DNA of 32,000 nt, from assembly GCA_030429145.1 (NCBI GenBank), contig JAUIDC010000001.1, positions 180,001 to 212,000 on the forward strand. Reading direction: 5' to 3'. The notes under the pieces are model-generated. The model worked only from the letters and a program-made list of their open reading frames with translations. It made no database searches and was not told the origin of the DNA. This document shows positions 1 to 31,976 of this stretch, piece after piece. Position 1 is the first letter of the stretch; the number at the start of each line of letters is the position of its first letter. Origin of the DNA: Candidatus Saccharimonadota bacterium. GTDB lineage: Bacteria > Patescibacteriota > Gracilibacteria > Absconditabacterales > Absconditicoccaceae. The translations under genes were made by a program, and so were the position numbers.

Positions 1-189
1 GTAATCGATTTGTTAAAAAGAATTATCGCAACGGGAAAGACGGTGATCATCGTAGAACATGACTTTGAATTTTTGGGAGAGTTTGTAGACACCATAGTAG
101 TGATGAATGACGGGAAAGTGATCTTGAAGGGAGATTATGAGGAGATTAAGGATAATCCGAAGTTGAAGGAAGTGTATTTTGGAAAATAA
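1..189 (+). CDS. ABC transporter ATP-binding protein, C-terminal fragment (LivG/LivF/LptB-like); 5' end lies outside the window
   Basis: Frame 1 reads VIDLLKRIIATGKTVIIVEHDFEFLGEFVDTIVVMNDGKVILKGDYEEIKDNPKLKEVYFGK, ending at TAA 187-189. It shows the Walker-B/H-loop region (IIVEHD) and the ..EVYFG tail typical of this ABC ATPase subgroup. Confidence 0.6.
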   Translation, partial: VIDLLKRIIATGKTVIIVEHDFEFLGEFVDTIVVMNDGKVILKGDYEEIKDNPKLKEVYFGK

Positions 190-217
190 AAAAAGCCCCG
201 GATAAGCCGGGGTTTTA
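188..217. terminator. bidirectional rho-independent terminator between convergent genes
   Basis: Stem CCCCGG (196-201) / CCGGGG (207-212) with loop ATAAG, an A-run upstream (188-194) and a T-run downstream (213-216). Confidence 0.75.
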
Positions 218-229
218 AATTCTTTCATC

Positions 230-685
230 TTAACTTTCATTAAAGCTCAGCAAAAGCTCTTCATGAGTTTTAATACTCTTTTCTTTCTCTTGAAGTTCTT
301 TTTTCAGTTTAACTACTGCATCTTTATCTTCAGCAATATTCTCAGAAAGATATGCTTTTACTAGGATATTTGACTTACCATCTTCTATCACAGGGTCTAC
401 ATATAACAACATATGAAAACCCAATAGAATACCTGCTATTGCCATACCGACCCCAGTAGACGTAATTAACACAAACACAATAGTCATAACAATATCCGTA
501 TCAGCGACAGGGAGAGATTTGTCCCCTGTATGAGTTGATATAAAAAACACTTCTATAATAAGCGTCAATAATCCAATCACCAATGAAGCTTTATTAAAAA
601 ACCGTAATTGATTTTCATTTCGCTCTCTCTTTAGATAGTTCTCACGAACGATTTTCTTAATTTCTTGTAATTTGGGATTTTCCAT
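230..685 (-). CDS. hypothetical membrane protein (two hydrophobic helices, K/E-rich C-terminal coil)
   Basis: Intact 151-aa ORF ending in TAA (230-232). Hydrophobic stretches ASLVIGLLTLIIEVFFI and IVMTIVFVLITSTGVGMAIAGILLGFHMLL. I recognise no family motif. Confidence 0.55.
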   Translation of the reverse strand: MENPKLQEIKKIVRENYLKRERNENQLRFFNKASLVIGLLTLIIEVFFISTHTGDKSLPVADTDIVMTIVFVLITSTGVGMAIAGILLGFHMLLYVDPVIEDGKSNILVKAYLSENIAEDKDAVVKLKKELQEKEKSIKTHEELLLSFNES

Positions 686-725
686 GATTATATGTTTTTA
701 ATATTTTTTTATTCAATGTAATGAA

Positions 726-751
726 ATGGCGGAAGCAATAACTTCCGCCAT
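726..751 (-). terminator. GC-rich hairpin downstream of the 778..1641 gene (terminator-like)
   Basis: Perfect 10-bp stem ATGGCGGAAG / CTTCCGCCAT with a 6-nt loop, 27 nt past the TAA of the minus-strand gene. There is no clean U-tract, only TTCATT. Confidence 0.4.
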
Positions 752-777
752 AAGTAAATTCCACGTACATACCAAGC

Positions 778-1641
778 TTATAGCGAAATCAATAAGTATG
801 ATTTCACACTCTTTGTTTCATAGGCATAACCTATACCAAAGAGAGCTTTGAGGTATTTAGCTTGTACAAGCTTAAGGATTCCTCCTTCTAGGCGTACTAC
901 ACACTTATTGGGCAATGAATAGCCGAAATCTGAGTATAGTAATAAGTGCTGCTTGCGATGAATCATGAACGTGTTGAGGTTGGCAATGGCATCATTGCTT
1001 TTCCAGAGCACAGTTGTGCTAAAACGCTCATTCTTATAGTCGAAGCCTATGCCAGTAGTCTGGGTCTTTACCTGGTAAAAACCGCTAATGCGAAAGTTCT
1101 TTACCGTACCTGACAACTGATACTCAGGCATGTTTTGGCGAAGAGATAATCCTCCACCGATCATGCTATTTTCAGTTGGTAGATATCTGACCATAACTCC
1201 TGGTGCAGCACCTGGGAAGCGACCCTTCGTTGAAGGTTCAAACTGTCCAAAATGTGAAGCGGGATGTGGCCTATGCTGCAAAGCTGTCAGCGTAGGACTA
1301 AAACCTGCATTTACAATCCACTTACGATGAGGAACATACTGAACATAAGCAGTAGCTAGTCCATACGATACTTGTGATATCGTTTCATACTCTGCAAATG
1401 TCCACGAGTAATACGTTAGTTTCTTGCTCATCTTCCAATGAATAGCTGCACCGACACGGGTATACATAAAGTTGTTGAATTGCTTCGTCTCAGGCTGATA
1501 CAAAGCGCCCGACAATACGCCAGCATATACTTTATCTATCATCACCGCGCTGTCACCTACAGGTATATTGGTAAGCTGTGCTTGAACTGTTAATGAACTC
1601 ATGGTGATAACGCACACCAACGCGATAATTAGTCTTTTCAT
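778..1641 (-). CDS. secreted beta-rich protein with signal peptide (possible beta-barrel/porin-like fold)
   Basis: 287-aa ORF running ATG 1639-1641 to TAA 778-780. N-terminus MKRLIIALVCVITMSSLTVQAQ looks like a signal peptide. The rest is rich in short alternating hydrophobic/polar strands with many Y/F/G/T residues. No family motif recognised. Confidence 0.55.
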   Translation of the reverse strand: MKRLIIALVCVITMSSLTVQAQLTNIPVGDSAVMIDKVYAGVLSGALYQPETKQFNNFMYTRVGAAIHWKMSKKLTYYSWTFAEYETISQVSYGLATAYVQYVPHRKWIVNAGFSPTLTALQHRPHPASHFGQFEPSTKGRFPGAAPGVMVRYLPTENSMIGGGLSLRQNMPEYQLSGTVKNFRISGFYQVKTQTTGIGFDYKNERFSTTVLWKSNDAIANLNTFMIHRKQHLLLYSDFGYSLPNKCVVRLEGGILKLVQAKYLKALFGIGYAYETKSVKSYLLISL

Positions 1642-1719
1642 ATTTTTCTTTTATTTTGGTTTTTGTGTTCATATTATAATACATATCTCTTATCTGTCAA
1701 TTATGTTGATTAACTTTCT

Positions 1720-1741
1720 GTTGTTTGAAACCACCAACAAC
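1720..1741. repeat. inverted repeat GTTGTT-N10-AACAAC in the divergent promoter region upstream of the TrmB-like gene
   Basis: GTTGTT at 1720-1725 and AACAAC at 1736-1741, read directly. An operator role is only a guess. Confidence 0.2.
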
Positions 1742-1802
1742 CCCCTAAATTTGCGTAATAGCAAAAGTACGAATATACTAGGATATATCTTATTTCTTAC
1801 GA

Positions 1803-1808
1803 TATTTT
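1803..1808 (+). promoter_or_regulatory. -10-like hexamer TATTTT 6 nt upstream of the TrmB ATG (short or absent leader)
   Basis: The sequence gaTATTTTacgcacATG is read directly. No Shine-Dalgarno-like purine run lies in between. Confidence 0.3.
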
Positions 1809-1814
1809 ACGCAC

Positions 1815-2558
1815 ATGGAATCATTACTTTTGACTCTCCAACAGTACGGTCTTTCTGAGAAGGAAGCGAAGGTCTATCTCACTGCCCTGCAACTCGGTTC
1901 AGCGCCCGGCAGCACTATTGCAAGAAATGCAAAAGAGAATAGAGCTACGGTCTATACCATCCTCAAAGAGCTCCAGAAAAAAGGGATCGTCAACGAGATC
2001 AAGAAAGACAACGTCACATTCTTCTCAGTCATCGCTCCTGACCTCCTCCTCAGAGAATTAGAAGACAAGTACAATAGCTTCAAGGAGAAGATTCCTGAGT
2101 TTCTCGCACTTGCAGAGACATTTGGCAATAAGCCAAAAGTACAGTTTTTTGAAGGCATTGAGGGTGTGAAGAAAATGTATGAGGACCTTCTTAGTTCACA
2201 AACAGAGATCTGTTCATTTCTCGGCATTGAGCACAGCAACAAAGAACTACTACAATACCTCAACAGAGAGTTTCTTATACGTCGCATCAAAAATGACATC
2301 TCTGCGAGAGTGATACTTTCTGACACAGAAAAAAATCAGAAATATGCTGGTATTGATGAAAAAGCGAAGAAACACTCTATCATTATTGAAAAGCCTGACT
2401 TCACTATTGACGGTGAAATAAACATCTACGGTCCAAACAAGATCAGCATCGCTCTGATGCACGATACAGAGATGTCGGGCATCATCATCTCAAGTGAGAA
2501 GCTATACTCTACCCTCAAAAATATATTCGATTTAGTTTGGTCGCAGAATAGTAAATAA
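1815..2558 (+). CDS. TrmB-family helix-turn-helix transcriptional regulator
   Basis: 247-aa intact ORF. The N-terminus LQQYGLSEKEAKVYLTALQLGSAPGSTIARNAKENRATVYTILKELQKKGIV is the TrmB-type winged HTH pattern (GLSxxEAKVYxxLLxxG...). Stop is TAA at 2556-2558. Confidence 0.7.
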   Translation: MESLLLTLQQYGLSEKEAKVYLTALQLGSAPGSTIARNAKENRATVYTILKELQKKGIVNEIKKDNVTFFSVIAPDLLLRELEDKYNSFKEKIPEFLALAETFGNKPKVQFFEGIEGVKKMYEDLLSSQTEICSFLGIEHSNKELLQYLNREFLIRRIKNDISARVILSDTEKNQKYAGIDEKAKKHSIIIEKPDFTIDGEINIYGPNKISIALMHDTEMSGIIISSEKLYSTLKNIFDLVWSQNSK

Positions 2559-4945
2559 TGAGCATGAAAGCTCCAGCACGCGGAGCCTGAGTTAATGAAA
2601 ATCTAGAATCAACAAGAGTTGATAAGATTTGATATTATCTTGATCAACTCTTTGGGCCTAATCCAGACCCAAATGGTATGTTTCTGTATGACTGGGGAGA
2701 CCCGCTTGGCAAAGACAATGGTGCACACCTCTTTTCAGAAGTCACACAGACCAAAGGCTACCAGCGCCTATCGCAATGAGAAAAAAACCTCTACAAGACT
2801 CACGCACATATACTAAAAGATATCCTCGATGAAAACACGAGAAACATCATCGACATGGGATGTGGAGATGGCGAGAAAAGTGCACAGGTACTGGATGCGG
2901 CGCTTGGTGAACAACTTGCATGAAAAACCTATATCCCTGCTGACATCAGTCCTTATTTTGTCGACCATGCAGGCGACAATGTCAAAGACCATTTCTCAAA
3001 ACAAAATACAAATATCAAAACAGTAGGAATGAATATCGACTTTCTTACATCCGATGCATTCAAAGATATCAAACATAAAATCTACCTCCTCCTTGGATGA
3101 AGTATTGGTAATTTTTCTGATGAAGAGATAGTACAAATATTACAAAATATGGCTGACAATAGCTACAAGGAGACGAGCAAGGCAGCCTTCAGTTACTTCA
3201 CTGCTCCCGATAAAGAGAGTGAGACATATCAAGATGATATCTATAAAATACTTGCTGCATACGGAGACCCTGACACTACAAACCCTTATTTTGATCAAGA
3301 AACACATCAAAAAACATCAGAGCGAATCCTTAGATGATTTGAATCTCTCGGCATCGAGAGAAACTCGATAGAGTTTTGTGTAAAGTATGATAAAGAGAAA
3401 AAAAGAATAGTAAGTGGCGTAAAAGTAAAAAAAAGGATCGTGATTAAACGTAATGGGAAAAATTATTTAAAGGAACCCGGAGAACACATATGGGCGATAC
3501 AATCAAGAAGATTTTCGAAGGAAGATATAAGTGCATTAATTAGCCAAGCATGAGGCGAAGTCATAGACAACTCCCCTCTTCAAGAGGGAATGGCAGCTAT
3601 CAGTTTTGAGGTAGGAAAAACACCTGAAGCTATAGAATCCAATAGAAAATTGAGAAAAAACAAGTTGGTCACGACCATCACTACTCTTGCTCTTCTTGCA
3701 GCATTAGGATGAGGTATGAAAATAGGCGAGAAAAGAGCTCAGGAAAAAGAAAGGAAAGAACGAATAGAGCGAGCTTCACCCTATGTCAATTTGACTCAAT
3801 CGTACAGATGACTTAGCAACGATCTGACTAATAAAGGTGATCAGAATGCTGAACAATTACGGGAACATTACGAGATAACATATGCTGAGCGCTTTAAGAC
3901 AGCCTACAATATAGATGATGCTAAAGCAAAAGAGATGAAACGCAGCTTTCTTTCGTGGTATGTGAAACAAACGGCCAACACGAGATATAGCCTTGATACC
4001 CGAGGTGGTTATGGAGAAAGCTATATCCACCTGATGCATGACTTTATCAATGAAAGAGGCGAAGAGTTTTGATTGAGTCAAAAAGATTATTTTGGAAATA
4101 TAGATGTTTATATGAGTCTTACTCGTAATACATTGCATTCTGAGTTGTCTGGAGAACTTCCTCAGGGCACAAAGATTACGAACGAGAAAATAATAAGTCA
4201 TAACCATCACTTCAACCTTTTTGATGAGGAAGGAAGAACAATTGGCAAAGTAGCTCAAGCAGAGATCAATGGGCAAAAAATGTTGGTCGCTGCATATGTG
4301 GAGGGACAAGATCAATACAGTAGCTACTCTGTAGATGCCGGCAAAGAGTTTCTCAAGATCTACTATATGAACTACCCATGACTGTACGATTTTTCTAAAC
4401 AGCTAGCTGCGAAGTATCAATTTAAAGAAGATAACTCAATGACTCATGAGGCAAACTGAAGGGAATACAATAGAGCTTCACAAGAGTTTATTCAAAAACA
4501 CATCGCATGATTACTCATGCAAGGATACGAGTTTGATTTCTATACACTAGGTTTACACTCTAATGAATATCAAATAAACTATTTTGCTAGTACATTCCTG
4601 CCTTACTCCAAAGAGGACTATGAGAATATAGATATGGGTAATCGAGATTGGTTTGAGTCATACAATGTACAGTGACTACTCGATGAGTGTATTGAATATG
4701 TCAAAAAGAATATTATGAGCAAAGAAGACACTCTCTCTCTTAAAAGAGAAAATCGCCTCAGAAGCATCATCTTCACAGCGATCTACAATAACATGACTCT
4801 AGGAGTAAGAACATTGACTGCCGAAAAAGCAGTTGCAGATCTTGAAGAAGAAATTAAAGCGTGACTAGTGAACCAAATTGTGTCTGAGAAAACGATAGCT
4901 GCTGGAAGAGGCAACGGACAGACCATCAAAATATATGAAGAGTAA
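2558..4945 (+). CDS. 795-aa fusion: EgtD-like SAM-dependent N-methyltransferase (Methyltransf_33 type) + TM-like segment + ~400-aa uncharacterised C-terminal domain
   Basis: ATG 2558 overlaps the TrmB stop (TAATG). One frame stays open to TAA 4943-4945 if TGA=Gly, with in-frame TGA starting at 2588, 2630, 2777, 2921, 3098, 3335, 3551, 3710, 3809, 4070 and 4379, among others. It absorbs track ORFs 3149..3337 and 4073..4381. EgtD-type motifs: LYDWGD..GAHLFSEVTQTKGY, IIDMGCGDGEKS, YIPADISPYF, LLLG-G-SIGNFSDEEIVQIL, WAIQSRRFSKEDISALISQAG. Hydrophobic LVTTITTLALLAALGGGM lies at about 3662-3720. Confidence 0.7.
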
Positions 4946-5078: not shown

Positions 5079-5792
5079 ATGAATCATATAAACAAACTTA
5101 ATGACGAGAGGATCAATAATATCCAGGAAGCTGGCAAATGAAACCTCCTCAAAAAAATCTCTGCCAGAATCGCCAACGAATTTCATGAAGAGAATATTGA
5201 AAATCTTCGCACGGCATTTGATGTGCTATTCTGAAAAGGAGAGATGACTGCAGAAGTCAAAGAGGCACTCAAAAAGTTTAATCTTGCTGGACTTCAGCTT
5301 TCTGACGATGAAAAAACCATAGACAGTGAAGCAAAAAGCAAATGGCTCATACAATACTGGCAAGATTTAGCTCATGTTTCAATGGGTGTTTATACCAATA
5401 TGAGACCAGTTGACATCAATATAGATATACCTCAAGAGTCAGGTAAATATAAATTTATTTTTATCAATCCTGGAATTATGCGAGACAATGAGTTTGCCCT
5501 TGTATCATGAACAGAAGATGCCCATATAGATATCTTCAGACGTTATCACAGTGAACATACCCAAGAAGATAACGAGACAACTGCAAAAATGAAAAACAAC
5601 AGCGGCCAAGCGATGGTTCCCGGTGGTTGACGAATAGAGGTCGACGCTAAAAACAAGCACCTTCGTTTTTATGGAAGCTCAGGAAATTATGGATATATAG
5701 CTGATAAGGTTATTGAATGGGCGACGCAGAAATTAAGGAATCAGTGATGGGAGACGAAGATTGAGATGGATTATGCAGGGAGAAATCATTAA
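5079..5792 (+). CDS. hypothetical protein (237 aa), no recognisable family
   Basis: ATG 5079 to TAA 5790-5792, open only if four TGA codons are read as Gly. It absorbs track ORF 5244..5510. The C-terminal segment is AMVPGG-G-RIEVDAKNKHLRFYGSSGNYGYIADKVIEWA. The start codon is uncertain. Confidence 0.5.
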
Positions 5793-8700
5793 TTACTTCA
5801 CCACCTTACCCATCTCCAAATACACAACCTCATCTGCAAACTTCAACAGGGTCTTATCATGCTCAATCATCAAGATTGTATCTCACTTATCGAGGAACTG
5901 CTTCAATACGAGGAGCAGTTTTTCGATATCCGAAGGATGAAGACCGACCGTTGGTTCGTCGAGGAAGTAGACGGTATGACCTCTGTATTGTTTAAGGAGA
6001 TGTTTGACGAGTTTGATACGCTGTGATTCACCTCCTGAAAGCGTATGTGCTGGCTGCCCCATTCTGAGGTAACCGAGCCCGATATCGATCATCAGTTTGA
6101 GCTCGTCGGCAATAAATCCGATGTCTTTGAAGACCTCGTAGGCCTCATAGACGTACATTTCGAGAATATCAGCGATCGTGTGCCCATGCCGATGAATATT
6201 CAGTATTTCCGTTTTGTAACGCTTACCGTGACAAAGTTCACAAGGAACATAGGTATCTGGGAGGAATTGAAGCTCTATTTTCTTGTGACCGTAGCCATCA
6301 CACGCTGGACATGCACCCTTTGACGAGTTGAACGAAAAGTGTCCCGCTTGGAAACCCATAAACTTCGCCTGATCGGTTCCAGCATAAATCTTACGAATAT
6401 TATCAAATGTGCCAATAAACGTACCTGGACAACTACGCGGCGTCTTACCAATACTCGTCTGGTCTACATAAATAACATTATCAACTTTATCGTGACCCGT
6501 GATAGTCTCTACTCCTATCGTATGATAAAATTCTTGTAGTGCGAGATTTTCAAGATTTGAGTACTCTTCACGTTTCATGACTGGCGATGCAACAATCTCG
6601 CTCCACGACATTCCTTTTTTCAAAAGCTGCAGTCTAATCCATCACTGTACGAATTTTGTCTTCTCTTCAAAGAACTTATAAAGCGTCTCAAACATAAGCG
6701 TCGTTTTACCTGCTCCCGATGGACCGGTAATGATACTAAATGCACCAAGACGAAGATTGACATCTATCCCCTGCAGATTGTTTTGCGTTGCTTTCTTTAC
6801 CTTAATCCACTTATCTTCTGGCTTATGATCAAACGTCACATCTATCTTTCTCTTACCAGTAATATAGTCTGCCGTCAATGTTTCAGACTTTTCAAACTTG
6901 TCATATGGCCCAGAGAACAGTAGATGTCCACCAAAATCACCTGATCATGGTCATATCTCGACCACCCAGTCCGATGCTTTGATAAAAGCTTCATTGTGCT
7001 CTACCACGACGATAGTATTTCCCATATCTTTGAGCGTCTTGATCGCTTTTATCGTACGTTCAATCTCACGATCATCCAGACCAATAGTCGGCTCATCGAG
7101 TACATAGATGATACCAGTCAACTTATTACCAAGCTGTTTCGCCAATCTCAAACGCTGGATCTCACCTCCGGAAAGCGTATCGATCTGTCTGTGCAGATTG
7201 AGATGCCCAAGTCCAAGACTACCAATTGTGTTGAGCCTATCTAAGAGTGGTGTCATGATACGATTGACCAACATTTCTGGCTTGTCGGTCGTCTTCTGGT
7301 AGTATTCCAATTTTGCTACGAGATCTGCGATAGTCATCCTCTGCAGATCATAGATGGTGAACATCTCGTCAACCTTATCAGTGAAAATATTGTCGGGCTG
7401 TTTTCCTTTTGCACCCATATATAAAAACACATACATAGACTCTTTACGGAGCTTACTTCCATGACATTCTGGGCATAGTTGCATATGAAACATCGCCTGA
7501 AAGTCTACACTTAGTACACCCTTGTTGTACTGAGAGGTCAATACGTCCTGTATACCATGATATTTCATACTTACATACTTACCTCCCATACCAAGCCTGA
7601 GGAGTTCTCCATCACCATCTATCACTACTTGTTGAAACCACTGTGGTAGTTTGTTCCATGGGAGATCCTCATCCATCGAATATTTCTGCGCTAACTTCTT
7701 CAAGATAGTCTGCCCAAGCACACTATCTTTCCATGGAATAATCGCTTTTGAGAAAACTGCTCCCGTATCGATGATACGATCCATATCTACCTGCAATATT
7801 TCACCTAATCCATGACAGTGCTGACACGCACCCTCTGCTCTATTTGGCGAAAAATGCTGCGTTGTAAACTCAGGATACGAGATATCATAATCCGGGTCGT
7901 AGTTCTTATCAGTAAACCACTTGATACTGTTCGACACAGTAAATACATCTTTATCTAACCCTTTCGACAGCTCATTTTCTCCATCCTGTTTCTCTTCCAA
8001 TGCCTCATAAACACCGAATTTCTTCGTCAATGACAAAATCTTAATAATATCTTCTTTCAAACGCCCCATCTTGCTCTCCTCGATCGTCACACGGTCAAAG
8101 ATCCCATAGACTTTTATCGGGAAAAACTTCTCCGGAATATGTGGAGATTCGAGATAGAAATACTCGATAACACTTGCGTCAGCGACAGATTCTACTGCTT
8201 GATGTTTGTGCTCTTCTCTTGCATGAGCAATAATATTGACATTTGAACCTTGCGTCTCTAGCTCCTTTTTTCCTTTCTTTTTTGTCGTTTCTTCTTCGAT
8301 ATCATCATCTTCGCTCGCTTCTTCCGTATCCTTTCCTCCCATAAGGATAAGATATCTTGTGAATCACTCTCCATTTTCTACTTTCGTGCGATTTTTCTTC
8401 ACAAATTTGAGAAAACTCATCTCATCGTCAAATCTTCCTGCTTCCTGCACAAGGTAGATTTTCTTATTGAGATATTTTTCTTTAATCTCTCCTACTATCT
8501 GATCAATACTCTGTGGTCTGATCATCTTCCCCGAACCATACGAGTAGATATCACCAAGCTTTGCATACATCAGACGTAGATAATCATCGATCTCTGTCAA
8601 CGTTCCCACTGTCGAACGAACATTTCCGACACGTTTATTCTGTTCAATAGCAATCGCCGGAGAAAGCCCTTCTGTGTAGTCTATATCTGGCCTCTCACCA

Positions 8701-9050
8701 AGATTAAAAAACTGTCTGAGATACGATGAAAGTGACTCAATATAGCGATACTGCCCCTCTTTATAGACTGTATCAAATGCAAATGATGACTTTCCGGAAC
8801 CAGAAACTCATACCACTGAAACTATGTTGTTCTTCGGGATAGTAATATCAACATCACGAAGATTGTGCGTCTTGATACCACGGAAAACAATTTTTTCTCC
8901 CTCTGGCTGATAGACCTCAGAGTGGATATGCTCTCCGGCAGCGATAATTTCCTCATGGGTTACCGCCTTCATTACCTTCTTTTTCGCTGTCGTTTTCTTC
9001 TTTGCTACTGATTTTTTCGCTGGAGTCTTCTTTTTTGCGCTACTCGGCAT
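5793..9050 (-). CDS. uvrA: excinuclease ABC subunit A (UvrA) with a K/A-rich N-terminal tail
   Basis: Track ORFs 8808..9056, 8364..8609, 6951..8342, 6642..6878 and 5883..6623 share one frame and are separated only by TGA (8808, 8364, 6951, 6945, 6642, 5883). The true stop is TAA at 5793-5795. Motifs: Walker A VV-G-VSGSGKSS, EI-G-P-G-SG (= IGPGAG), zinc modules CQHCHGLG, CPECHGSK and CPACDGYG..CELCHGKRY, and signatures LSGGEIQR and LSGGESQR. I place the start at ATG 9048-9050; an alternative TTG is at 9054-9056. Confidence 0.92.
8970..9050 (-). other. low-complexity segment coding the UvrA Lys/Ala-rich N-terminal tail
   Basis: MPSSAKKKTPAKKSVAKKKTTAKKKVMKAV precedes the conserved UvrA N-terminus (..FRGIKTHNLRDVDITIP). 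Confidence 0.7.
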
Positions 9051-15886: not shown

Positions 15887-18256
15887 CTATTCCTTAATAT
15901 TCTGCGTATTTTTACAGTCAGGATATTTATTACATGCAAGGAAGTAACCGCGTCTTGATTTCTTCACGTGCATAGTACCTTTTTCACACTTATCACACTT
16001 CTTTCCGCCAAACTTCTCCTCAAGTTCCTCCATTTTTTCATCAGGGATAGACGAGATCCACTTTACCTTTGGATATTCTGAGGATGTCAGGAATGGACCG
16101 AATCTACCCATCTTCACGACGATAGTTCCACCCTCTGGACATGGCTTCCCTTCATATTTCTCACGTAGTGGAGCCAAAGCGTCTTTCTCTTCCTGTGTCT
16201 TCTCCGTGTAGTCACACTCTGGATAGTTACTACATCCTATAAATTTGCCAAAACGAGTAAACTTATAGATAAGATCACCGTCTGTACATTTTGGACATTT
16301 TTTCCCAACAGGCACCACTTCTTTCTCACTCTTTTTCGCAGCATTAATCGTCTTTTCAAAGCCTGTATAAAACTCTTCCATCATCTTTTTCCAACCCTTC
16401 TTTCCTTCTGCGATCGTATCGAGTTCATCTTCCATCTTCGCTGTGAACTCATAATTCATCAAATTTTCAAAATTCTTCTCCAAAAAATCTACTACCAAAA
16501 AGGCTATCTCGGTTGGATGAAGCTTTTTATCCTCTTTCTTTACGACGTACCCTCTCTCCTGCACAGTAGAGATAGTCGGCGCATATGTTGAAGGACGTCA
16601 TACTCCGTATCATTCTAGAGCTTTTACAAGCGACGCCTCGGTGTATCTTGCTGGTGGACGCGTAAATGATTGGTGTGCTCTGACGTAGTCAGCAGGTAGC
16701 GTTATTCATTTATCAAGATTTGGTAACGTCTGATCACCTCCTTCTTCCTCATTTTCCTCATCCTGTCCATAGAGAGCAAGAAAACCAGGGAAGACTATAC
16801 GCTTTCCTTTAGCAACCCACTCCTGCTCTGTTCCTTCAGGAGTAAATGTATAAGTGGTATTGAGTACCTTAGCACTTGCCATCTGTGATGCAACCGTACG
16901 AGCCCAAATCAGCTCATAGAGCTTCAGTTCCTGACCACTCAGCCCCGACGTTTGTGGCGTACGATCCACATATGTTGGTCTGATAGCTTCATGCGCCTCT
17001 TGGGCATTTTTACTCTTTGTTGAAAATTTTCTCACGGTCAAATAGTCTTTGCCGTATGCATGTTCAATATATTTTGCCGCAGCATTGATTGCCATGCCAG
17101 AGAGATTGACACTATCCGTTCTCATATAGGTGATGAAACCTCTTTCGTAGAGCTTCTGTGCTGTCATCATCACCTGTTTCACTGACCACCCTAGTCTTGA
17201 TGCTCCTGCTTGTTGGAGCGTAGACGTTGTAAACGGTGCTGCAGGGTTTCTGGTAGAAGTTTTTTCCCCGATATCCATGAGACTAAACCTGCTGTCAGCC
17301 GAGTAAGTATGTACAAGCCACCCAGTCTTTTCATTCGTTTCGACCTGAGGAGTCAGATTGCTCGTCAAAGTTTTCACCATCGCCTCGGCATCAGCGAGGG
17401 TATGAAGCTTAACAGCCTTGCCCGCATCTTTATGTAGCTCACAAGATAAAGAAGTTTTTTCATATTTCAGATCTGTTTTGAGTGTCCATGACTCTTCTGG
17501 TTTGAAGTTCTGTATCTCTCTTTCTTTCTCTACTATCATTTTTACTGCTACCGACTGTACACGTCAAGCAGAAAGTCCACGACGAATCTTTGTCCGTAAG
17601 ACTGGTGATACATTAAATCACACGAGACGGTCAAGTACACGTCTTGCCTGTTGCGCATCTACGAGATTCATATCAATATGTCTCGGATTTTCTACTGCAG
17701 CTTGTATAGCATCTTTCGTAATCTCATGAAAAACTATACGTGGCGTCTTGTCTACGGGCAAACCAAGGACATGAGAAACATGCCAAGCAATAGCCTCTCC
17801 TTCGCGGTCCTCGTCCGTTGCAAGCCATACTTGTTTTGCCACTTTTGCATCTCTTTTCAACTCTGCAATGACTTTTTTCTTGTCTGCTGAAACCTCATAG
17901 GTCGGTGTAAAGTTTTCTTTTACATCAATACCTAAAGTCTTTTGCGGCAAATCAGCCACATGTCCAAATGAGGCCTTTACTTCTCGGTCTTTACCAAGAA
18001 ATCACTGGATAGTTTTCCCTTTTGCAGGAGACTCCACAATGACAAGATTTCTTCCTGTCACGTCTGCTCCTGAAAGCGTATATGATCTTGTTGCTCTTGC
18101 TGTTGTCTTCTTCGCGGCAACTTTCTTCGTCGTCTTTTTTGTAGCTGTCTTCTTCGCTGATGATTTTTTTGCTACTTTTTTCGCTGTAGTCTTTTTTGCC
18201 TTTTTCGCTGGTGCGGCGCTATCGGCAGAACGCTTAGTCGTCTTTTTCGCTACCAT
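15887..18256 (-). CDS. topA: DNA topoisomerase I with a Lys/Ala/Thr-rich N-terminal tail
   Basis: Track ORFs 18002..18256, 17618..17959, 16706..17539 and 15887..16564 share one frame and are joined only by TGA (18002, 17618, 17564, 16706 and two more in 16565-16705). Motifs: TOPRIM [50 protein letters not shown], and C-terminal zinc ribbons CPKC..CSNYPEC and CDKC..CNKYPDC. Stop is TAG at 15887-15889. Confidence 0.93.
18086..18256 (-). other. low-complexity segment coding the TopA Lys/Ala/Thr-rich N-terminal tail
   Basis: MVAKKTTKRSADSAAPAKKAKKTTAKKVAKKSSAKKTATKKTTKKVAAKKTTARATRS precedes the TOPRIM core. I found no alternative ATG between the tail and the core. Confidence 0.8.
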
Positions 18257-28103: not shown

Positions 28104-28949
28104 TTATCTGAAACGAAAGAACGGACTTGCTGCACAGTTTTGCTGACATTCAAAGCCATTGATGACATACTGACCATTCTCTCTAATGATGTACGAATAC
28201 CATGTTTCACCATAAGTCAATCCGTCATTTTGCAAGATGTATGATGTGTTATACTGTACTACCATAGCATCTTCATTTCTTTGTACGATTGGATGATCTA
28301 TAACTGCATTTACATCACTTAGCTGTATGTCTCCGATGATGTTTTGCTTTCGACTCTCGAGTCTTGATGGACTGAAATACTGTACTAAGCCTGGATCAGT
28401 TGTGAATGTCGAATCAAACAGCGTTGGCATCTGATCAAACTTTCACTCATTGAAATACCCGTAAAATGTCTCAACCATCTTCTGTGCGTCGACAGGAAAT
28501 GCAGCATTGTCATTTGCTGGAAGCGGTAGCTGAGCATTTTGCTCTGTGTCAGTTGCACTTGCTCCGTTATTGTCCTGCTCTTCTCCACTCATAACATCTG
28601 CGCTATTGTTCTGCTCTGCCGGTACTGTGGTAGGCGGGTTATCTTTGTTGATCTGAATGTAGATACCCACGAGAACTAAGAGTGTTCCTAGCCCGAGAAC
28701 TATTAGTGACAAAAAATTATTTTTTCTCATGGCTGGATATTGTGATGTGAGTTCATCTTCTCGTAGGTTTTCATATGCCAAATCTTTGTCGATTGTTGCC
28801 GTACGATTGGCCGCTGTCTTTTTCGCTGTCGTTTTTTTCGCTGCAGTTTTCTTGGTTGTACTCTTTTTTGCTACAGCCGTTTTCTTCGTTTTCGCAGGTG
28901 CAGAACGGCGAGTAGAAGTTTTTTTTGCTGTTGTTTTTTTTGCAGGCAT
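28104..28949 (-). CDS. single-pass membrane protein with a histone-H1-like Lys/Ala/Thr-rich N-terminal tail and a C-terminal globular domain
   Basis: Track ORFs 28443..28955 and 28104..28430 share one frame and are joined by TGA 28443-28445. ATG is at 28947-28949 and TAA at 28104-28106. Order: tail, TM helix FLSLIVLGLGTLLVLVGIYIQI, a low-complexity linker, then about 150 aa (AQKMVETFYGYFNE-G-KFDQM...YIIRENGQYVINGFECQQN). Confidence 0.65.
28794..28949 (-). other. low-complexity segment coding the Lys/Ala/Thr-rich N-terminal tail of the membrane protein
   Basis: MPAKKTTAKKTSTRRSAPAKTKKTAVAKKSTTKKTAAKKTTAKKTAANRT. Confidence 0.7.
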
Positions 28950-29090
28950 AAGCACAAAATAGAAAATAAATAAAGCACTATTAAAAGTTTTATAGTAAAT
29001 TAATTGCCTATTGCAAGCACATAACAGAAAGAAAACTATTGAGAATACCTCGCATATAATTACTATCTCCTCCTGTGAGATTATTTCATT

Positions 29091-29102
29091 TTATCGCGAT
29101 AA
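29091..29102. promoter_or_regulatory. perfect 12-bp palindrome TTATCGCGATAA 18 nt upstream of the SET gene ATG (candidate operator)
   Basis: The palindrome is read directly. It lies in the 171-bp divergent spacer 28950-29120. No binding protein is known. Confidence 0.25.
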
Positions 29103-29120
29103 AAACATATTTGTCTTTCC

Positions 29121-29558
29121 ATGAACTATAGTACGTGACCACATCAACTACTCAGACCAGATGCATATAGCGTTCGTCGCTCCTCTGCTTGACTCGGTCT
29201 TTACGCAGAGCAACCTATCAAAAAAGGACAAAAAATTATTGAATATATTGGAGAAAGGATTTCAACTGCAGAAGCAGATCGTCGTGGTGGAAAGTACCTC
29301 TTCACTGTAAACTCACGCATCACTATCGATGGCACACCAAGATATAACACCGCTCGCTATATCAATCATAGCTGTAAACCCAATGCTGAACCTAGAGAAA
29401 ACAGTGGAAGAATTTACGCATATGCAATAAAAAATATTGCCGCATGAGAAGAGATTACCTACAATTATGGGAAAGAGTACCGAGAGCACTATATCAAACC
29501 TTACGGATGCAGATGTGCTGCATGCAAAAAAAATGTATGAACTAAAAAGAAAAAATAA
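29121..29558 (+). CDS. SET-domain protein-lysine methyltransferase (145 aa, minimal SET)
   Basis: ATG 29121 to TAA 29556-29558. It is missing from the ORF track because of four TGA codons. Motifs: SSA-G-LGLYAEQPIKKGQKIIEYIGERIS, RYINHSCKPNAE (NHSCxPN), IAA-G-EEITYNYG (ELTxDY), and a post-SET-like Cys cluster GCRCAACK. Confidence 0.85.
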
Positions 29559-29580
29559 TTTCTTACCTTGATTTTTTATA

Positions 29581-29616
29581 AGAAGCAGATACGAAAGAAC
29601 TGCTTCTTTATTTTGT
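29581..29616 (+). terminator. rho-independent terminator after the SET gene
   Basis: Stem AGAAGCAG (29581-29588) / CTGCTTCT (29600-29607) with an 11-nt loop, followed by TTATTTTGTT. Confidence 0.65.
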
Positions 29617-29627
29617 TATGAAAAAAC

Positions 29628-30248
29628 ATGACACACAACATCATCGAAGCATTGCAATGGCGCTATGCGACAAAGCACTATGATACAGAGAAAAAACTTG
29701 AAGAAGACAAATTACATACGATCCTAGAAGCGTGAAGATTGGCACCTTCTCGGGCGAATACACAACCACGAACATTTGTTGTCGTGAGCAATCCTGAAAT
29801 AAAAAAAGAGCTCGGAGAGCATTCAGGAAATGCACAAGTAGTAGAGTGTTCACACCTCATTGTCATTTGTGCTATAACTGACTTTAATACTGACTATATC
29901 AATAAGCACATAGAGCATACAGCGCAGACGCGAGACAAAGATATCTCTGCAGTGGAGTGATATAAAAAGATGCTTCTCGGTATGGAGAAGACGCAAGACA
30001 AATGGTTGAAACACAATCCATTTATCGCACTTGGCACGATGATCTGTGCAGCGGCTGAACTACGCGTTGATAGCTCACCTATGTGAGGATTCGATCGCGA
30101 ATGATTTACAAAAGTGCTACAACTTGAAGAAAAAAAGCTGACACCACTAGTACTCCTAGGGCTTGGCTATAGAAGCAAAGATGATAAAGCAGCAGAGCGC
30201 AAGAAAGTAAGGTGGGATCATGAAGACGTCATCATCCGTCTTGATTAA
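29628..30248 (+). CDS. NAD(P)H nitroreductase family protein (206 aa)
   Basis: ATG 29628 to TAA 30246-30248 with four TGA codons. It absorbs track ORF 29739..29960. Motifs: RYATKHYD, ILEA-G-RLAPSRANTQPRTFVVV, SSPM-G-GFD, LLGLGYR. Confidence 0.85.
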
Positions 30249-30251
30249 CTG

Positions 30252-31106
30252 CTACCCCAATAGACGAGATAATACGACAAAAAACAGCACCATCCCCGAA
30301 AGTGTATTTACTCGAGGAAAGATTTTATATATAGAGAAAAGTGTTCATTTTTTATATTGCCACAATGCTACTATCATCAGCGCTATATAGAGAACGCCTA
30401 GCAGTCCGAGAATCCAATGATAGAAAAAAGCGATGCTACCTGCCAAAAGATAAAGCAAGAGGCACAAGAATATAGTCCCCAAACCTCAAAGCAACGTTGC
30501 GACGGTATCTACCCCTCACTCCTTATCAGCTTGTATGTCAGGCACAGCTGAAAATGCATGCATCGCCATAGCCCAGGCCAGTGCGGCAAGCACAAACATC
30601 CAGCCAATGTTTTCTGGTCCAGCGATCAGCAAAAATCAAAACAGCGCTGTTGTTACATAATGTCATGCACTGAAAAACATATCTAGCAACGGTAGACCTT
30701 TCGCTCTTATCGGCTTTGCCGAATACTGTCCTGAGAAAAAGAGGAAAAGCAAGAACGCTACGATAGGAGCGATCTCCCATGGGATAAATAAAAGAAAAGG
30801 AAGTGTTGAAAAAGCTATTCGCCTCCACAGTTTTAGATGCTCTTTCGGTTCAACAAGAGCCTCATAGGCCTGTTTCTTTGGATTGAGCTTATCTGTTTCA
30901 TAGTCGTAGATGTCGTTGATCCCGTATATCCAAATGTTTGCAGGGATGAGAAAATATAAAAAGAATACAGCGATGAGGAACCACATACTCTTATCTCAAG
31001 GCACACCAAATAGTGCCATCCCAGCTATAAGACCAATCATGTATGGCCCCAGTTCATATATTCGAAATCTTGGTCTAGAAATACGCAACACTCTCTGCAA
31101 ATGCAT
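30252..31106 (-). CDS. UbiA-family prenyltransferase (284 aa), lycopene-elongase (CrtEb/Lye)-like N-terminus
   Basis: One frame runs from ATG 31104-31106 to TAG 30252-30254 with TGA at 30996, 30663, 30636, 30516, 30486 and 30345. It absorbs track ORF 30663..30986. Asp-rich motifs NDIYDYETDKLNPKK and DIQADKE-G-GVDT. The N-terminus LRISRPRFRIYELGP resembles, from memory, the SRPRFW signature of carotenoid-elongating UbiA enzymes. About 8 TM helices. Confidence 0.72.
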
Positions 31107-31133
31107 AGTTATATGAGAACAAAAGATAAAAGA

Positions 31134-31976
31134 TTATCGGATATGTTGTAATAAAATACGACCTTTATCAACTTTCGTTGTTCTCGCCGAATGAGAAAAA
31201 ACATCATAGTTGTTTTTTTCTATTTTTCTGAGTATTCACTGATAGAGCTTTGATGCGAGAAAGATAGGTTTCTGAGCAAACTCAGGCAAAAACTGTAATC
31301 ACTCCTCTGCCTCAGCATAAAGCTGATCTGCATGTTCAATTTGCACACGCATAAAATCTTGCCGTGACGCATCAGGATTTTCTCTTCATTCTACATACGC
31401 ACGCACATCATCGTGCGATAAGCCATGTTGACGAAGCTCTTCTTGTGGCATATAAATGCGCTGAAAGTCTCTTCGATCCTCCGCTACATCACGCAAAAAG
31501 TTAGTAAGTTGCATGGCCTCTCAAAGCGCTCTCGCATATGGCAACGCGTGCTCTTTATCAGCGTCCACCAGATAACACATCATCTCTCCGACCACCATGG
31601 CAGAACCATACATATATTGTTGTAACTCCTCATATGTCTCATAAAGACTCTTCTCTGTATCCATTAACATCGCATCCCAAAAACTCTCGCTAGAGAGAAA
31701 TGGGATCTTTTTACGATGAAAAAGCTCTACGGCACTGCCCCAACGCTCATGTGCTATATCTTTTTCCTCATATGCTTTCTGCCACTCTTTCCACATCTCT
31801 TGGAGTATCCTCTTTGCATCTTGTCCCGATCTCTCTTTATCGTCTACGACCAAATCAGGGATGCGAACAAACGCATACAGTGTCATCACATCCTTCTTTA
31901 CATGACGAGGAAAGAACAATGTCGCATAGTAGTAACTTGTTCCATACTTTCTCATATAGTATGACACTGAACGCAT
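31134..31976 (-). CDS. phytoene/squalene synthase family enzyme (CrtB/CrtM-like, 280 aa)
   Basis: Track ORF 31521..31976 continues through TGA at 31521, 31386, 31299 and 31236 to TAA 31134-31136. Motifs: TSYYYATLFFP, LYAFVRIPDLVVDD (first Asp-rich), YMYGSAMVVGEMM, NFLRDVAEDRRDFQRIYMP (second Asp-rich), NYDVFSHSARTTK. Confidence 0.8.

What the first reader, a model, noticed from the sequence alone, without database searches (positions are those of the whole stretch)
29121..29558. Minimal SET-domain lysine methyltransferase transcribed divergently from a lysine-tail protein: a possible bacterial chromatin writer/substrate pair
The 145-aa ORF is visible only with TGA=Gly. It is a bare SET domain with NHSCKPN, the GEEITYNYG motif and a CRCAACK post-SET-like cluster, and I see no signal peptide. 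It shares a 171-bp divergent spacer with the gene whose product starts with a roughly 50-residue AKKTT tail, and the spacer contains the perfect palindrome TTATCGCGATAA. Established knowledge: SET enzymes methylate protein lysines. Prokaryotic SET proteins have been reported to methylate histone-like chromatin proteins (chlamydial Hc1/Hc2, Methanosarcina MC1) or host histones. Inference: the tails on TopA, UvrA and the membrane protein are the obvious lysine-dense substrates in this genome. That would amount to a histone-tail-like modification system in a CPR-type bacterium. The alternative is an effector aimed at the host cell of an episymbiont.
Basis: partly seen in the sequence, partly recalled or inferred. 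Interest (0 to 1): 0.75.

Follow-up and report, generated by a model that had tools for sequence, protein, structure and literature searches.

The report
Small bacterial SET-domain lysine methyltransferase gene
This is a real, intact gene for a small SET-domain protein-lysine methyltransferase of a type widespread in bacteria, but its position next to a lysine-tailed membrane protein comes from a recent gene deletion, so nothing yet links the enzyme to those tails.

Summary
29121-29558(+) encodes a 145-aa stand-alone SET domain, readable only with TGA=Gly (Pfam SET 87.7 bits). All catalytic motifs and a four-Cys post-SET cluster are present. An AlphaFold model of an 86%-identical orthologue matches MLL1 SET.

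- The protein belongs to a large, highly conserved bacterial mini-SET family: more than 4,800 clusters, 49-64% identical across Patescibacteria, Microvirga, Acidobacteria, Bacteroidota and others. Lysine tails are rare around those genes.
- In seven sister genomes an HI0933-like flavoprotein gene lies between the tail-protein gene and SET. The shared 171-bp spacer is therefore a deletion product specific to this genome.
- The palindrome occurs at chance frequency (9 observed, 9.3 expected) and is not conserved.
- With 3 of 25 genes tail-bearing, adjacency to one is unremarkable.

New points:
- The genome is Absconditabacteria-like and also appears to read CGA/CGG as Trp, so SET residue 121 is probably Trp.
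- N-terminal tails on TopA are specific to this clade.
- In the nearest relatives the SET enzyme itself carries a C-terminal lysine-rich tail.

The gene is a new member of a known kind. Its substrate is unknown, and tail methylation remains an untested possibility.

The parts
29121..29558 (+). SET-domain protein-lysine methyltransferase CDS, 145 aa. In-frame TGA=Gly codons at 29136-29138, 29190-29192, 29445-29447 and 29538-29540.
29187..29207 (+). AGLGLYA: the GxG S-adenosylmethionine-binding motif. Its first Gly is encoded by TGA.
   Evidence: Gly in 97/97 homologues
29355..29384 (+). RYINHSCKPN: the SET pseudoknot / cofactor motif. Cys85 is the predicted fourth zinc ligand.
   Evidence: (N82, C85, P87, N88 invariant)
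29445..29471 (+). GEEITYNYG: the motif carrying the catalytic Tyr (Y116 invariant). Y114 sits at the Phe/Tyr-switch position.
29481..29483 (+). CGA codon (aa 121), most likely decoded as Trp rather than Arg.
   Evidence: the column is F/V/W/Y in 94 of 97 homologues, and W in the nearest orthologues (KEYWNFY)..
29508..29525 (+). CRCAAC: short post-SET cluster (CxCx2C). C130, C132 and C135 are invariant in the 19-sequence alignment.
29526..29555 (+). KKNVGTKKKK: short basic C-terminal tail. It is 13-47 aa long and K-rich in 12 of the 13 nearest orthologues (P0002-P0014; P0012 has a 10-aa one).
29580..29617 (+). Hairpin (AAGAAGCAG / CTGCTTCTT) followed by a U-rich run. This is a possible intrinsic terminator that would make SET a single-gene transcription unit.
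   Evidence: z = -2.4. The consensus scan did not call it.
28950..29120 (.). 171-bp divergent spacer. The part next to the membrane-protein gene is homologous to the spacer between that gene and the HI0933-like gene in relatives. The flavoprotein gene itself is missing here.
28986..29001 (.). AGTTTTATAGTAAATT: the only strongly conserved block of the spacer, present in five relatives. It is a candidate promoter element.
29091..29102 (.). Palindrome TTATCGCGATAA (14 nt with its flanks). At chance frequency and not conserved.
28104..28949 (-). Clade-restricted bitopic membrane protein, 281 aa. It has a disordered K-rich N-terminal tail (aa 1-52, 28794-28949), one transmembrane helix, a low-complexity linker and a C-terminal NTF2-like domain.
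15887..18256 (-). Topoisomerase I with an N-terminal K/T/A-rich tail of about 56-70 aa (18089-18256).
5793..9050 (-). UvrA with an N-terminal K-rich tail of about 28 aa (8967-9050).

Best explanation
The gene encodes a stand-alone, cytoplasmic, S-adenosylmethionine-dependent protein-lysine N-methyltransferase. It belongs to the widespread bacterial 'mini-SET' family: about 130-145 aa, a SET core plus a short CxCx2C zinc cluster.

Shown:
- Family membership, intact catalytic motifs and the SET fold (the fold on an 86%-identical orthologue).
- Stronger sequence conservation than its neighbours.
- A genome of Absconditabacteria type that reads UGA as Gly and very probably CGA/CGG as Trp.
- Adjacency to the lysine-tailed membrane protein that arose when this genome lost an HI0933-like flavoprotein gene lying between them in every related genome examined.

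Inferred mechanism:
- Cys85 together with Cys130, Cys132 and Cys135 binds zinc and closes the lysine channel.
- Tyr116 is the catalytic tyrosine.
- Tyr at the Phe/Tyr-switch position suggests mono- or dimethylation rather than trimethylation.
- The basic C-terminal tail is short here and 13-47 aa in 12 of the 13 nearest orthologues. It is of the same kind as the TopA and UvrA tails, and it probably holds the enzyme on nucleic acid. The enzyme would then act on basic, nucleic-acid-associated proteins.
- The substrate groove is conserved at 50-65% identity across phyla whose nearby genes rarely carry such tails. The primary substrate is therefore more likely a broadly conserved protein than the clade-specific tails, although the tails could be additional substrates.
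For: Identity and fold:
- Pfam SET 87.7 bits. The best solved-structure sequence matches are Set1/KMT2/ASH1L SET domains, around 1e-16.
- The AlphaFold model of orthologue P0003 has pLDDT 85.8. The top Foldseek hit is MLL1 SET 2w5z_A, E=6e-11, 36% identity.
- Invariant residues include C85, C130, C132, C135, Y116 and N82.

Family:
- 4,806 clusters at E<=1e-10.
They include cultured free-living Microvirga, Pyrinomonadaceae, Chitinophagales and many Patescibacteria at 49-64% identity.

Constraint within the clade: SET is 79-91% identical, the membrane protein 48-65%.

Synteny: the order membrane protein(-) | HI0933-like(+) | SET(+) holds in seven relatives, and the window has no remnant of the flavoprotein gene.

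Tails:
- 12 of the 13 nearest SET orthologues (P0002-P0014) have a K-rich C-terminal extension of 13-47 aa, and 17 of the 120 top hits have a basic extension.
- Actinobacterial TopA lysine repeats stabilise DNA binding (PMC5714199).

Genetic code.
Against: - No substrate evidence of any kind was obtainable, so every statement about substrates is inference.
- High cross-phylum identity could also reflect horizontal transfer rather than a shared substrate.
- The tail-protein gene, the flavoprotein gene and SET stay close together throughout the clade. That is compatible with a functional link, although these genomes are syntenic over the whole 20 kb.
- The prediction of mono- or dimethylation rests on analogy with MLL1 and SET7/9, recalled from established knowledge and not tested here.
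Confidence: 0.7

Rival explanations
1. Tail writer. In this Absconditabacteria clade the physiological substrates of SET are the K/T/A-rich tails on TopA, UvrA and the membrane protein, and on SET itself (automethylation). Methylation would tune their affinity for DNA, giving a histone-tail-like modification system, although the genes are not a co-regulated pair.
For: - Tails are real and clade-specific. The 16 or so nearest TopA orthologues, including Ca. Absconditicoccus praedator, carry N-terminal tails of 30-94 aa, while Gracilibacteria-labelled and other Patescibacteria orthologues start directly at the Toprim domain.
- The enzyme carries the same kind of tail in 12 of its 13 nearest orthologues.
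- The membrane protein's tail is predicted to be disordered and to lie N-terminal to its single transmembrane helix. By the positive-inside rule it should face the cytoplasm, where a cytoplasmic enzyme could reach it.
- Precedents exist: cpnSET with Hc1, and Go1-SET with MC1-alpha (PMC3980110).
Against: - The family is equally well conserved in phyla where K-rich tails are rare: 11 of about 1,380 flanking ORFs, against 3 of 25 here.
- Other code-25 SETs (P0020, P0038, P0073, P0103) have no tail. The one of these whose locus was examined (L087, the P0020 locus) has no K-rich protein among its 16 ORFs.
- Tail sequences evolve fast, with no conserved target motif beyond the 'MPAKK' start.
- Lysine repeats on TopA already have a sufficient known role in DNA binding and processivity.
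- No co-occurrence test was possible.
Confidence: 0.17
2. Co-regulated divergent writer/substrate pair. SET and the tail-protein gene would share a regulatory spacer whose palindrome is an operator.
For: In this genome the two genes are divergent, 171 bp apart, and a 12-14-nt perfect palindrome lies 18 nt upstream of the SET start codon.
Against: - Seven of seven relatives have an HI0933-like gene between them.
- The palindrome count equals expectation (9 against 9.3), and the palindrome is absent from the relatives.
- The promoter scan is not above shuffled controls.
- The chance of a tail-bearing neighbour is about 12-23%.
Confidence: 0.03
3. Secreted effector. The SET protein is delivered into the host or prey cell and methylates host proteins, like NUE, LegAS4/RomA or BaSET.
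For: - Absconditabacteria are epibiotic predators.
- Several bacterial SET proteins are nucleomodulins.
- There is a weak NCBIfam hit to the SET part of LegAS4.
Against: - There is no signal peptide and no room for one.
- The LegAS4 score is 36 bits against a cutoff of 550.
- The family is present in free-living Microvirga, Acidobacteria and Bacteroidota.
- The known prey are gammaproteobacteria, which lack histones.
- No secretion-system genes are adjacent.
Confidence: 0.04

Closest known systems
Stand-alone bacterial SET-domain proteins annotated 'SET domain-containing protein-lysine N-methyltransferase' in Patescibacteria and other phyla (e.g. P0064, P0067, P0070; loci L002-L081)
   Same: Same one-domain architecture and length. 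49-67% identity. All four SET motifs and the invariant C...CxCx2C cysteines are present.
   Different: - This one is written in a code with UGA=Gly and probably CGA/CGG=Trp.
- Its clade adds a lysine-rich C-terminal tail.
- No member of the family that I could find has a known substrate.
Eukaryotic KMT2/Set1 (MLL1, MLL4, yeast Set1) SET catalytic domains
   Same: Best matches by sequence and fold: about 1e-16 and 36-39% identity over about 120 aa. Same GxG, NHSC and ELTYDY motifs, and Tyr at the Phe/Tyr-switch position.
   Different: - No flanking domains and no partner-binding regions.
- The post-SET spacing is CxCx2C instead of CxCx4C.
- No histone H3 is present.
Chlamydia pneumoniae cpnSET with Hc1/Hc2, and Methanosarcina mazei Go1-SET with MC1-alpha
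   Same: The same concept: a small prokaryotic SET enzyme methylating the organism's own basic DNA-binding protein (PMC3980110).
   Different: - No Hc1/Hc2 or MC1 homologue was shown here. The tail scores 25.6 bits against the Pfam HC2 cutoff of 40, and 22.5 against the NCBIfam cutoff of 135, so the match is compositional only.
- No interaction or activity data exist.
- Sequence relationship to cpnSET and Go1-SET was not tested.
Viral minimal SET proteins (chlorovirus vSET type, phage SET proteins)
   Same: Comparable minimal size and fold. The best-covered match is the 116-aa protein M1IDW8, with TM-score 0.78 normalised to the target.
   Different: Only 23-29% identity. They are viral and, from established knowledge, directed at host histones.
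Lysine repeats of actinobacterial topoisomerase I
   Same: Lysine/alanine-rich disordered extensions on TopA that stabilise DNA binding (PMC5714199). This is the simplest explanation for the tails on TopA and UvrA here.
   Different: They are C-terminal in Actinobacteria and N-terminal here. Here the same kind of tail also occurs on UvrA, on a membrane protein and on SET.

Membership tests
SET-domain protein-lysine methyltransferases (Pfam PF00856) | Profile match above the curated threshold | tested here: met
   87.7 bits against a cutoff of 22.4, E=8e-25, covering the full profile 1-105
SET-domain protein-lysine methyltransferases (Pfam PF00856) | GxG cofactor motif, (R/x)xINHSCxPN motif, and ELxY/FxY motif with the catalytic Tyr | tested here: met
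   AGLGLYA, RYINHSCKPN and GEEITYNYG. The residues are invariant or nearly so in alignments of 19 and 107 sequences.
SET-domain protein-lysine methyltransferases (Pfam PF00856) | SET beta-fold | tested here: met
   AlphaFold model of the 86%-identical orthologue P0003: pLDDT 85.8. Foldseek hit to MLL1 SET: E=6e-11, TM-score about 0.6. The window protein itself was not modelled.
SET-domain protein-lysine methyltransferases (Pfam PF00856) | Post-SET zinc cluster (canonical CxCx4C plus the Cys of NHSC) | tested here: inconclusive
   Four conserved cysteines are present, but with CxCx2C spacing. Metal binding cannot be tested here.
SET-domain protein-lysine methyltransferases (Pfam PF00856) | Lysine methyltransferase activity | not testable with these tools
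   Needs a recombinant enzyme with TGA recoded to GGN and CGA recoded to TGG
Prokaryotic chromatin-protein writers (cpnSET/Hc1, Go1-SET/MC1-alpha type) | A cognate basic DNA-binding substrate homologous to Hc1/Hc2 or MC1 | tested here: not met
   The tail matches HC2 only below threshold: 25.6 against 40 in Pfam, 22.5 against 135 in NCBIfam
Prokaryotic chromatin-protein writers (cpnSET/Hc1, Go1-SET/MC1-alpha type) | Demonstrated interaction with, or methylation of, the organism's own nucleoid protein | not testable with these tools
   No experimental or proteomic data are available
Writer/substrate gene pair (conserved linkage) | Adjacency and a shared regulatory region conserved in related genomes | tested here: not met
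   An HI0933-like gene intervenes in 7 of 7 relatives. The palindrome is not conserved. No neighbour is conserved across the family.
Writer/substrate gene pair (conserved linkage) | Phylogenetic co-occurrence of SET and tail-bearing proteins | tested here: inconclusive
   - SET occurs widely where tails were rare in the flanking DNA.
- TopA tails are specific to the Absconditabacteria-like clade.
- The SET status of tail-bearing genomes such as A. praedator could not be determined: there is none within +/-10 kb of its TopA.
Secreted SET nucleomodulins (NUE, LegAS4/RomA, BaSET) | Secretion signal or effector-family membership, and a eukaryotic host | tested here: not met
   - No signal peptide.
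- LegAS4 model 36 bits against a cutoff of 550.
- Characterised relatives prey on bacteria.

The most novel reading that the evidence does not exclude
Absconditabacteria have appended histone-tail-like K/T/A-rich extensions to DNA-transaction enzymes (TopA, UvrA), to a membrane protein and to the SET methyltransferase itself. The SET enzyme methylates these tails, in trans and on itself, to tune their DNA affinity. That would be a bacterial tail-modification system that evolved independently of histones.
Probability: 0.12. Interest if true: 0.75.

Novelty: new member of a known kind. Interest (0 to 1): 0.3.

Why it matters
As it stands, this is a routine annotation: a conserved bacterial SET methyltransferase whose family has no known substrate.

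Three things give it modest value:
- It removes the apparent genomic link to the tail protein.
- It shows that correct decoding needs CGA/CGG=Trp as well as UGA=Gly, which matters for any expression construct.
- It shows that lysine-rich tails are a clade-specific trait of Absconditabacteria-like genomes that extends to the SET enzyme itself.

If the tails were shown to be methylated, it would be a rare example of a regulated tail-modification system on bacterial DNA enzymes. Identifying the conserved substrate of this very widespread mini-SET family would also be a worthwhile result in its own right.

Tried and rejected
- Palindrome as operator: rejected. Its count equals the Markov expectation and it is absent from relatives.
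- Sigma-70 promoter scan of the spacer: 3 sites against 2.8 expected, uninformative. The terminator scan found nothing, but folding shows a hairpin plus a U-run after SET.
- Conserved-neighbour search over 76 family loci: only local synteny turned up. The largest clusters cover 6-9 loci: a histidine-kinase-like protein, an acetate-kinase-like protein, a phosphoketolase-like protein, a pseudouridine-synthase-like protein and a basic-tailed membrane protein. These identities are my reading of the sequences and were not checked against Pfam. None gave a substrate clue.
- Automatic choice between code 11 and code 25 by ORF coverage was too permissive, so the code was set by hand.
Orthologue P0003 was used instead.
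- Cluster look-up gave no organism names. Taxonomy was inferred from TopA homologues instead.
- Literature searches for SET together with Gracilibacteria or Patescibacteria, and for lysine-rich tails in CPR, found nothing relevant. The Vampirococcus paper does not mention SET, methyltransferases or histones.
- The A. praedator TopA locus has no SET within +/-10 kb, which says nothing about the rest of that genome.
- The Hc2-like hit of the tail was rejected as compositional.

Full report
**1. Observation**

With table 11 the region 29121-29558(+) is broken by four TGA codons. With TGA=Gly it is one 145-aa ORF.
- The product matches Pfam SET over the whole profile: 87.7 bits against a cutoff of 22.4, E=8e-25.
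- Its best solved-structure sequence relatives are the SET domains of yeast Set1, KMT2A-D and ASH1L, at about 1e-16.
- The TGA codons at aa 24 and 109 fall on columns that are Gly in 97/97 and 95/97 homologues. Three TGA codons in TopA fall on columns that are Gly in 40/40.
- The conserved core starts at about residue 14, so there is no room for a signal peptide.
- The spacer to the ATG of the tail protein (28949, minus strand) is 171 bp and contains TTATCGCGATAA at 29091-29102.

**2. Organism and genetic code**

The nearest named TopA homologues are Candidatus Absconditicoccus praedator and an Absconditabacteria MAG, both 58% identical. Gracilibacteria follow at 51-58%.

Shulgina and Eddy predicted that Absconditabacteria read CGA and CGG as Trp in addition to UGA=Gly (PMC8629427). 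The window agrees with this:
- The TopA CGG codon at aa 221 sits on an invariant Trp column (40/40), and its CGA codon at aa 91 sits on Tyr/Phe.
- The SET CGA codon at aa 121 sits on an F/V/W/Y column, and that position is W in the nearest orthologues.
- The membrane protein's CGA codon at aa 63 is W in the three orthologues read.
- The nitroreductase CGA codon falls on what I recall as that family's conserved QPW motif; this was not checked against an alignment.

There are 33 CGA and 9 CGG codons in the 25 genes of the window. SET residue 121 is therefore most likely Trp.

**3. What the protein is**

An AlphaFold model of orthologue P0003 (86% identical) has pLDDT 85.8. The tool would not accept the code-25 translation of the window itself.
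- Its best Foldseek match among solved structures is the MLL1 SET domain: E=6e-11, 36% identity, TM-score about 0.6.
- Among viral models it matches phage and giant-virus SET proteins, including a 116-aa minimal one.

In alignments of 19 and 107 family members the conserved positions include the GxG glycines, Y42, Y59, F61, N82, C85, N88, Y116 and C130/C132/C135. The four cysteines presumably form the zinc cluster that closes the lysine channel. The spacing is CxCx2C rather than the canonical CxCx4C.

NCBIfam offers only a sub-threshold hit to the SET part of the Legionella effector LegAS4, 36 bits against a cutoff of 550.

**4. The family**
- The 5.8-billion-protein search returned 4,806 clusters at E<=1e-10. 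Most are 130-145 aa, and several are already named 'SET domain-containing protein-lysine N-methyltransferase' in Patescibacteria.
The best 80 include many Patescibacteria classes, Bdellovibrionales, Gammaproteobacteria, cultured Microvirga strains, Pyrinomonadaceae, Chitinophagales, Xanthobacteraceae and Caulobacterales, at 49-64% identity.
- At 50% clustering the representative library has 49 clusters at E<=1e-30 and 1,323 at E<=1e-10.
- The SET protein is more conserved across Patescibacteria (about 55-67%) than TopA (47-50%).
- Other code-25 lineages also have it: P0020, P0038, P0073 and P0103.

**5. Neighbourhood**

Seven related contigs share the gene order of the window over about 20 kb: L082, L083, L085, L089, L091, L092 and L093, with SET 79-91% identical. 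All of them carry an HI0933-like (TIGR00275) flavoprotein gene of about 400 aa between the tail-protein gene and SET, on the SET strand. The window has no trace of it.
- The half of the window spacer next to the membrane-protein gene aligns with the relatives' spacer between that gene and the flavoprotein gene. It includes a conserved block, AGTTTTATAGTAAATT, at 28986-29001.
- The palindrome lies in the unconserved half, is absent from the relatives, and is one of 9 perfect 12-nt palindromes where 9.3 +/- 3.1 are expected.
- A more distant code-25 SET (L087) sits after yebC, in an unrelated context.
- Across 76 loci of the family no neighbour recurs beyond local synteny.
- A hairpin plus a U-run follows the SET stop codon.

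The 'shared divergent spacer' is therefore a recent deletion scar, not a conserved regulatory arrangement.

**6. The tails**

In the window, 3 of 25 genes carry K-rich tails: UvrA, TopA and the membrane protein. In the other family loci the figure is 11 of about 1,380 ORFs.
- TopA tails of 30-94 aa occur in the 16 or so nearest orthologues, including A. praedator. They are absent from about 65 Gracilibacteria-type orthologues, which start 'MAKN' directly before the Toprim domain, and from other Patescibacteria.
- The membrane protein belongs to a family of only 16 database clusters, confined to this clade. All full-length members start with MPAKK (two with one extra residue after the Met) and have a variable basic tail.
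- The model of the membrane protein shows a disordered tail, one transmembrane helix, a disordered linker and a confident NTF2-like C-terminal domain.
- The tail's matches to Hc2 and other H1-like models are far below threshold and are compositional.
- Unexpectedly, 12 of the 13 nearest SET orthologues (P0002-P0014) themselves end in a K-rich tail of 13-47 aa, for example ...KKTTTKKVETKKTVKKKK. The window's copy retains only KKNVGTKKKK. Basic extensions also occur on scattered distant family members: 17 of the top 120.

**7. Mechanism and rivals**

The best-supported reading is an ordinary cytoplasmic SET lysine methyltransferase. Its own basic tail probably keeps it on nucleic acid, alongside other tail-bearing DNA enzymes. 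Lysine repeats on actinobacterial TopA are known to stabilise DNA binding (PMC5714199).

The catalytic core and the presumed substrate groove are conserved across phyla whose nearby genes rarely carry such tails. I therefore consider a broadly conserved basic substrate more likely than the clade-specific tails. This is inference.

Rivals:
- Tails as substrates, including automethylation: possible, about 0.17.
- A co-regulated pair using the palindrome: contradicted by synteny.
- A host-directed effector: unlikely. There is no signal peptide, the family occurs in free-living bacteria, and the characterised Absconditabacteria prey on gammaproteobacteria (PMC9698310).

**8. Comparison with known systems**

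None of their defining substrate features could be shown here. The gene is a new member of a known, already annotated family.

**9. Limits**
- No whole-genome co-occurrence test, no activity data, and no model of the window protein itself.
- A. praedator shows no SET within +/-10 kb of TopA. The rest of that genome was not searched.

Noticed in passing
window-wide: e.g. 29481-29483 (SET aa 121), TopA aa 91 and 221 (gene 15887-18256 -), membrane protein aa 63 and 200 (gene 28104-28949 -), nitroreductase aa 48 (gene 29628-30248 +): CGA and CGG codons (33 and 9 in 25 genes) fall on Trp or aromatic columns of homologues. This fits the Arg-to-Trp reassignment predicted for Absconditabacteria (PMC8629427). 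Table-25 translations of this genome are therefore wrong at these codons.
   Followed up: partly
window 15887-18256 (-) and TopA homologues P0121-P0240: N-terminal K/T/A-rich tails on TopA (30-94 aa, starting around M-P/V-x-K-K-T-T-R-S...SAAxAKK) are confined to the 16 or so nearest orthologues, including cultured Ca. Absconditicoccus praedator. Gracilibacteria-type orthologues lack them.
   Followed up: partly
SET orthologues P0002-P0014; L082 10001-10492; L091 8056-8577; also L053 and L005: The SET enzyme itself carries a C-terminal lysine-rich tail of 13-47 aa in 12 of its 13 nearest orthologues (short in the window and in P0012). Basic extensions also recur in a few distant family members.
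   Followed up: partly
window 28950-29120, compared with L082 8693-9922, L083 8712-9905, L091 8635-9861, L092 1471-2700, L093 1917-3131: This genome has lost an HI0933-like / TIGR00275 'aminoacetone oxidase family' flavoprotein gene that lies immediately upstream of SET, on the same strand, in all seven relatives.
   Followed up: yes
window 28986-29001: The 16-nt block AGTTTTATAGTAAATT upstream of the membrane-protein gene is conserved in five related genomes. It may be a promoter element.
   Followed up: no
window 2558-4945 (+) and 5079-5792 (+): A 795-aa protein with an N-terminal Methyltransf_33 domain (EgtD-like histidine-specific methyltransferase) and 15 in-frame TGA codons is followed by a Janus/Ocnus-family protein. 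From memory, that family contains the phosphohistidine phosphatase PHPT1 and is mostly eukaryotic; I did not check this here.
   Followed up: no
window 30252-31976 (-), continuing in L001 12857-18073: An isoprenoid/carotenoid-type gene set: squalene/phytoene synthase, a UbiA prenyltransferase, an amine-oxidase/phytoene-desaturase-like flavoprotein and a polyprenyl synthase. It stood out to me in a genome of about 0.94 Mb (contig length); I did not check whether it is unusual for CPR bacteria.
   Followed up: no
window 1-2558: The first three ORFs (230-685, 778-1641, 1815-2558; 685 codons) contain no TGA codon, against an average of about 91 per 10,000. The two CGA/CGG codons there sit in Arg-like contexts (KRE[R]NE). 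This could be chance or a segment of different origin.
   Followed up: no
window 28104-28949 (-): The neighbour of SET is a clade-restricted bitopic membrane protein with a C-terminal NTF2-like domain. Its fold resembles the NTF2-like domains of PBP2a (N-terminal), RsgI9 and Bd1075. Two Cys are invariant near its C-terminus.
   Followed up: partly
P0257 (264 aa) and P0266 (4,769 aa): The representative search returned a protein with two tandem mini-SET copies and a giant protein with 12 matched stretches. The family therefore also occurs in fused or repeated form.
   Followed up: no
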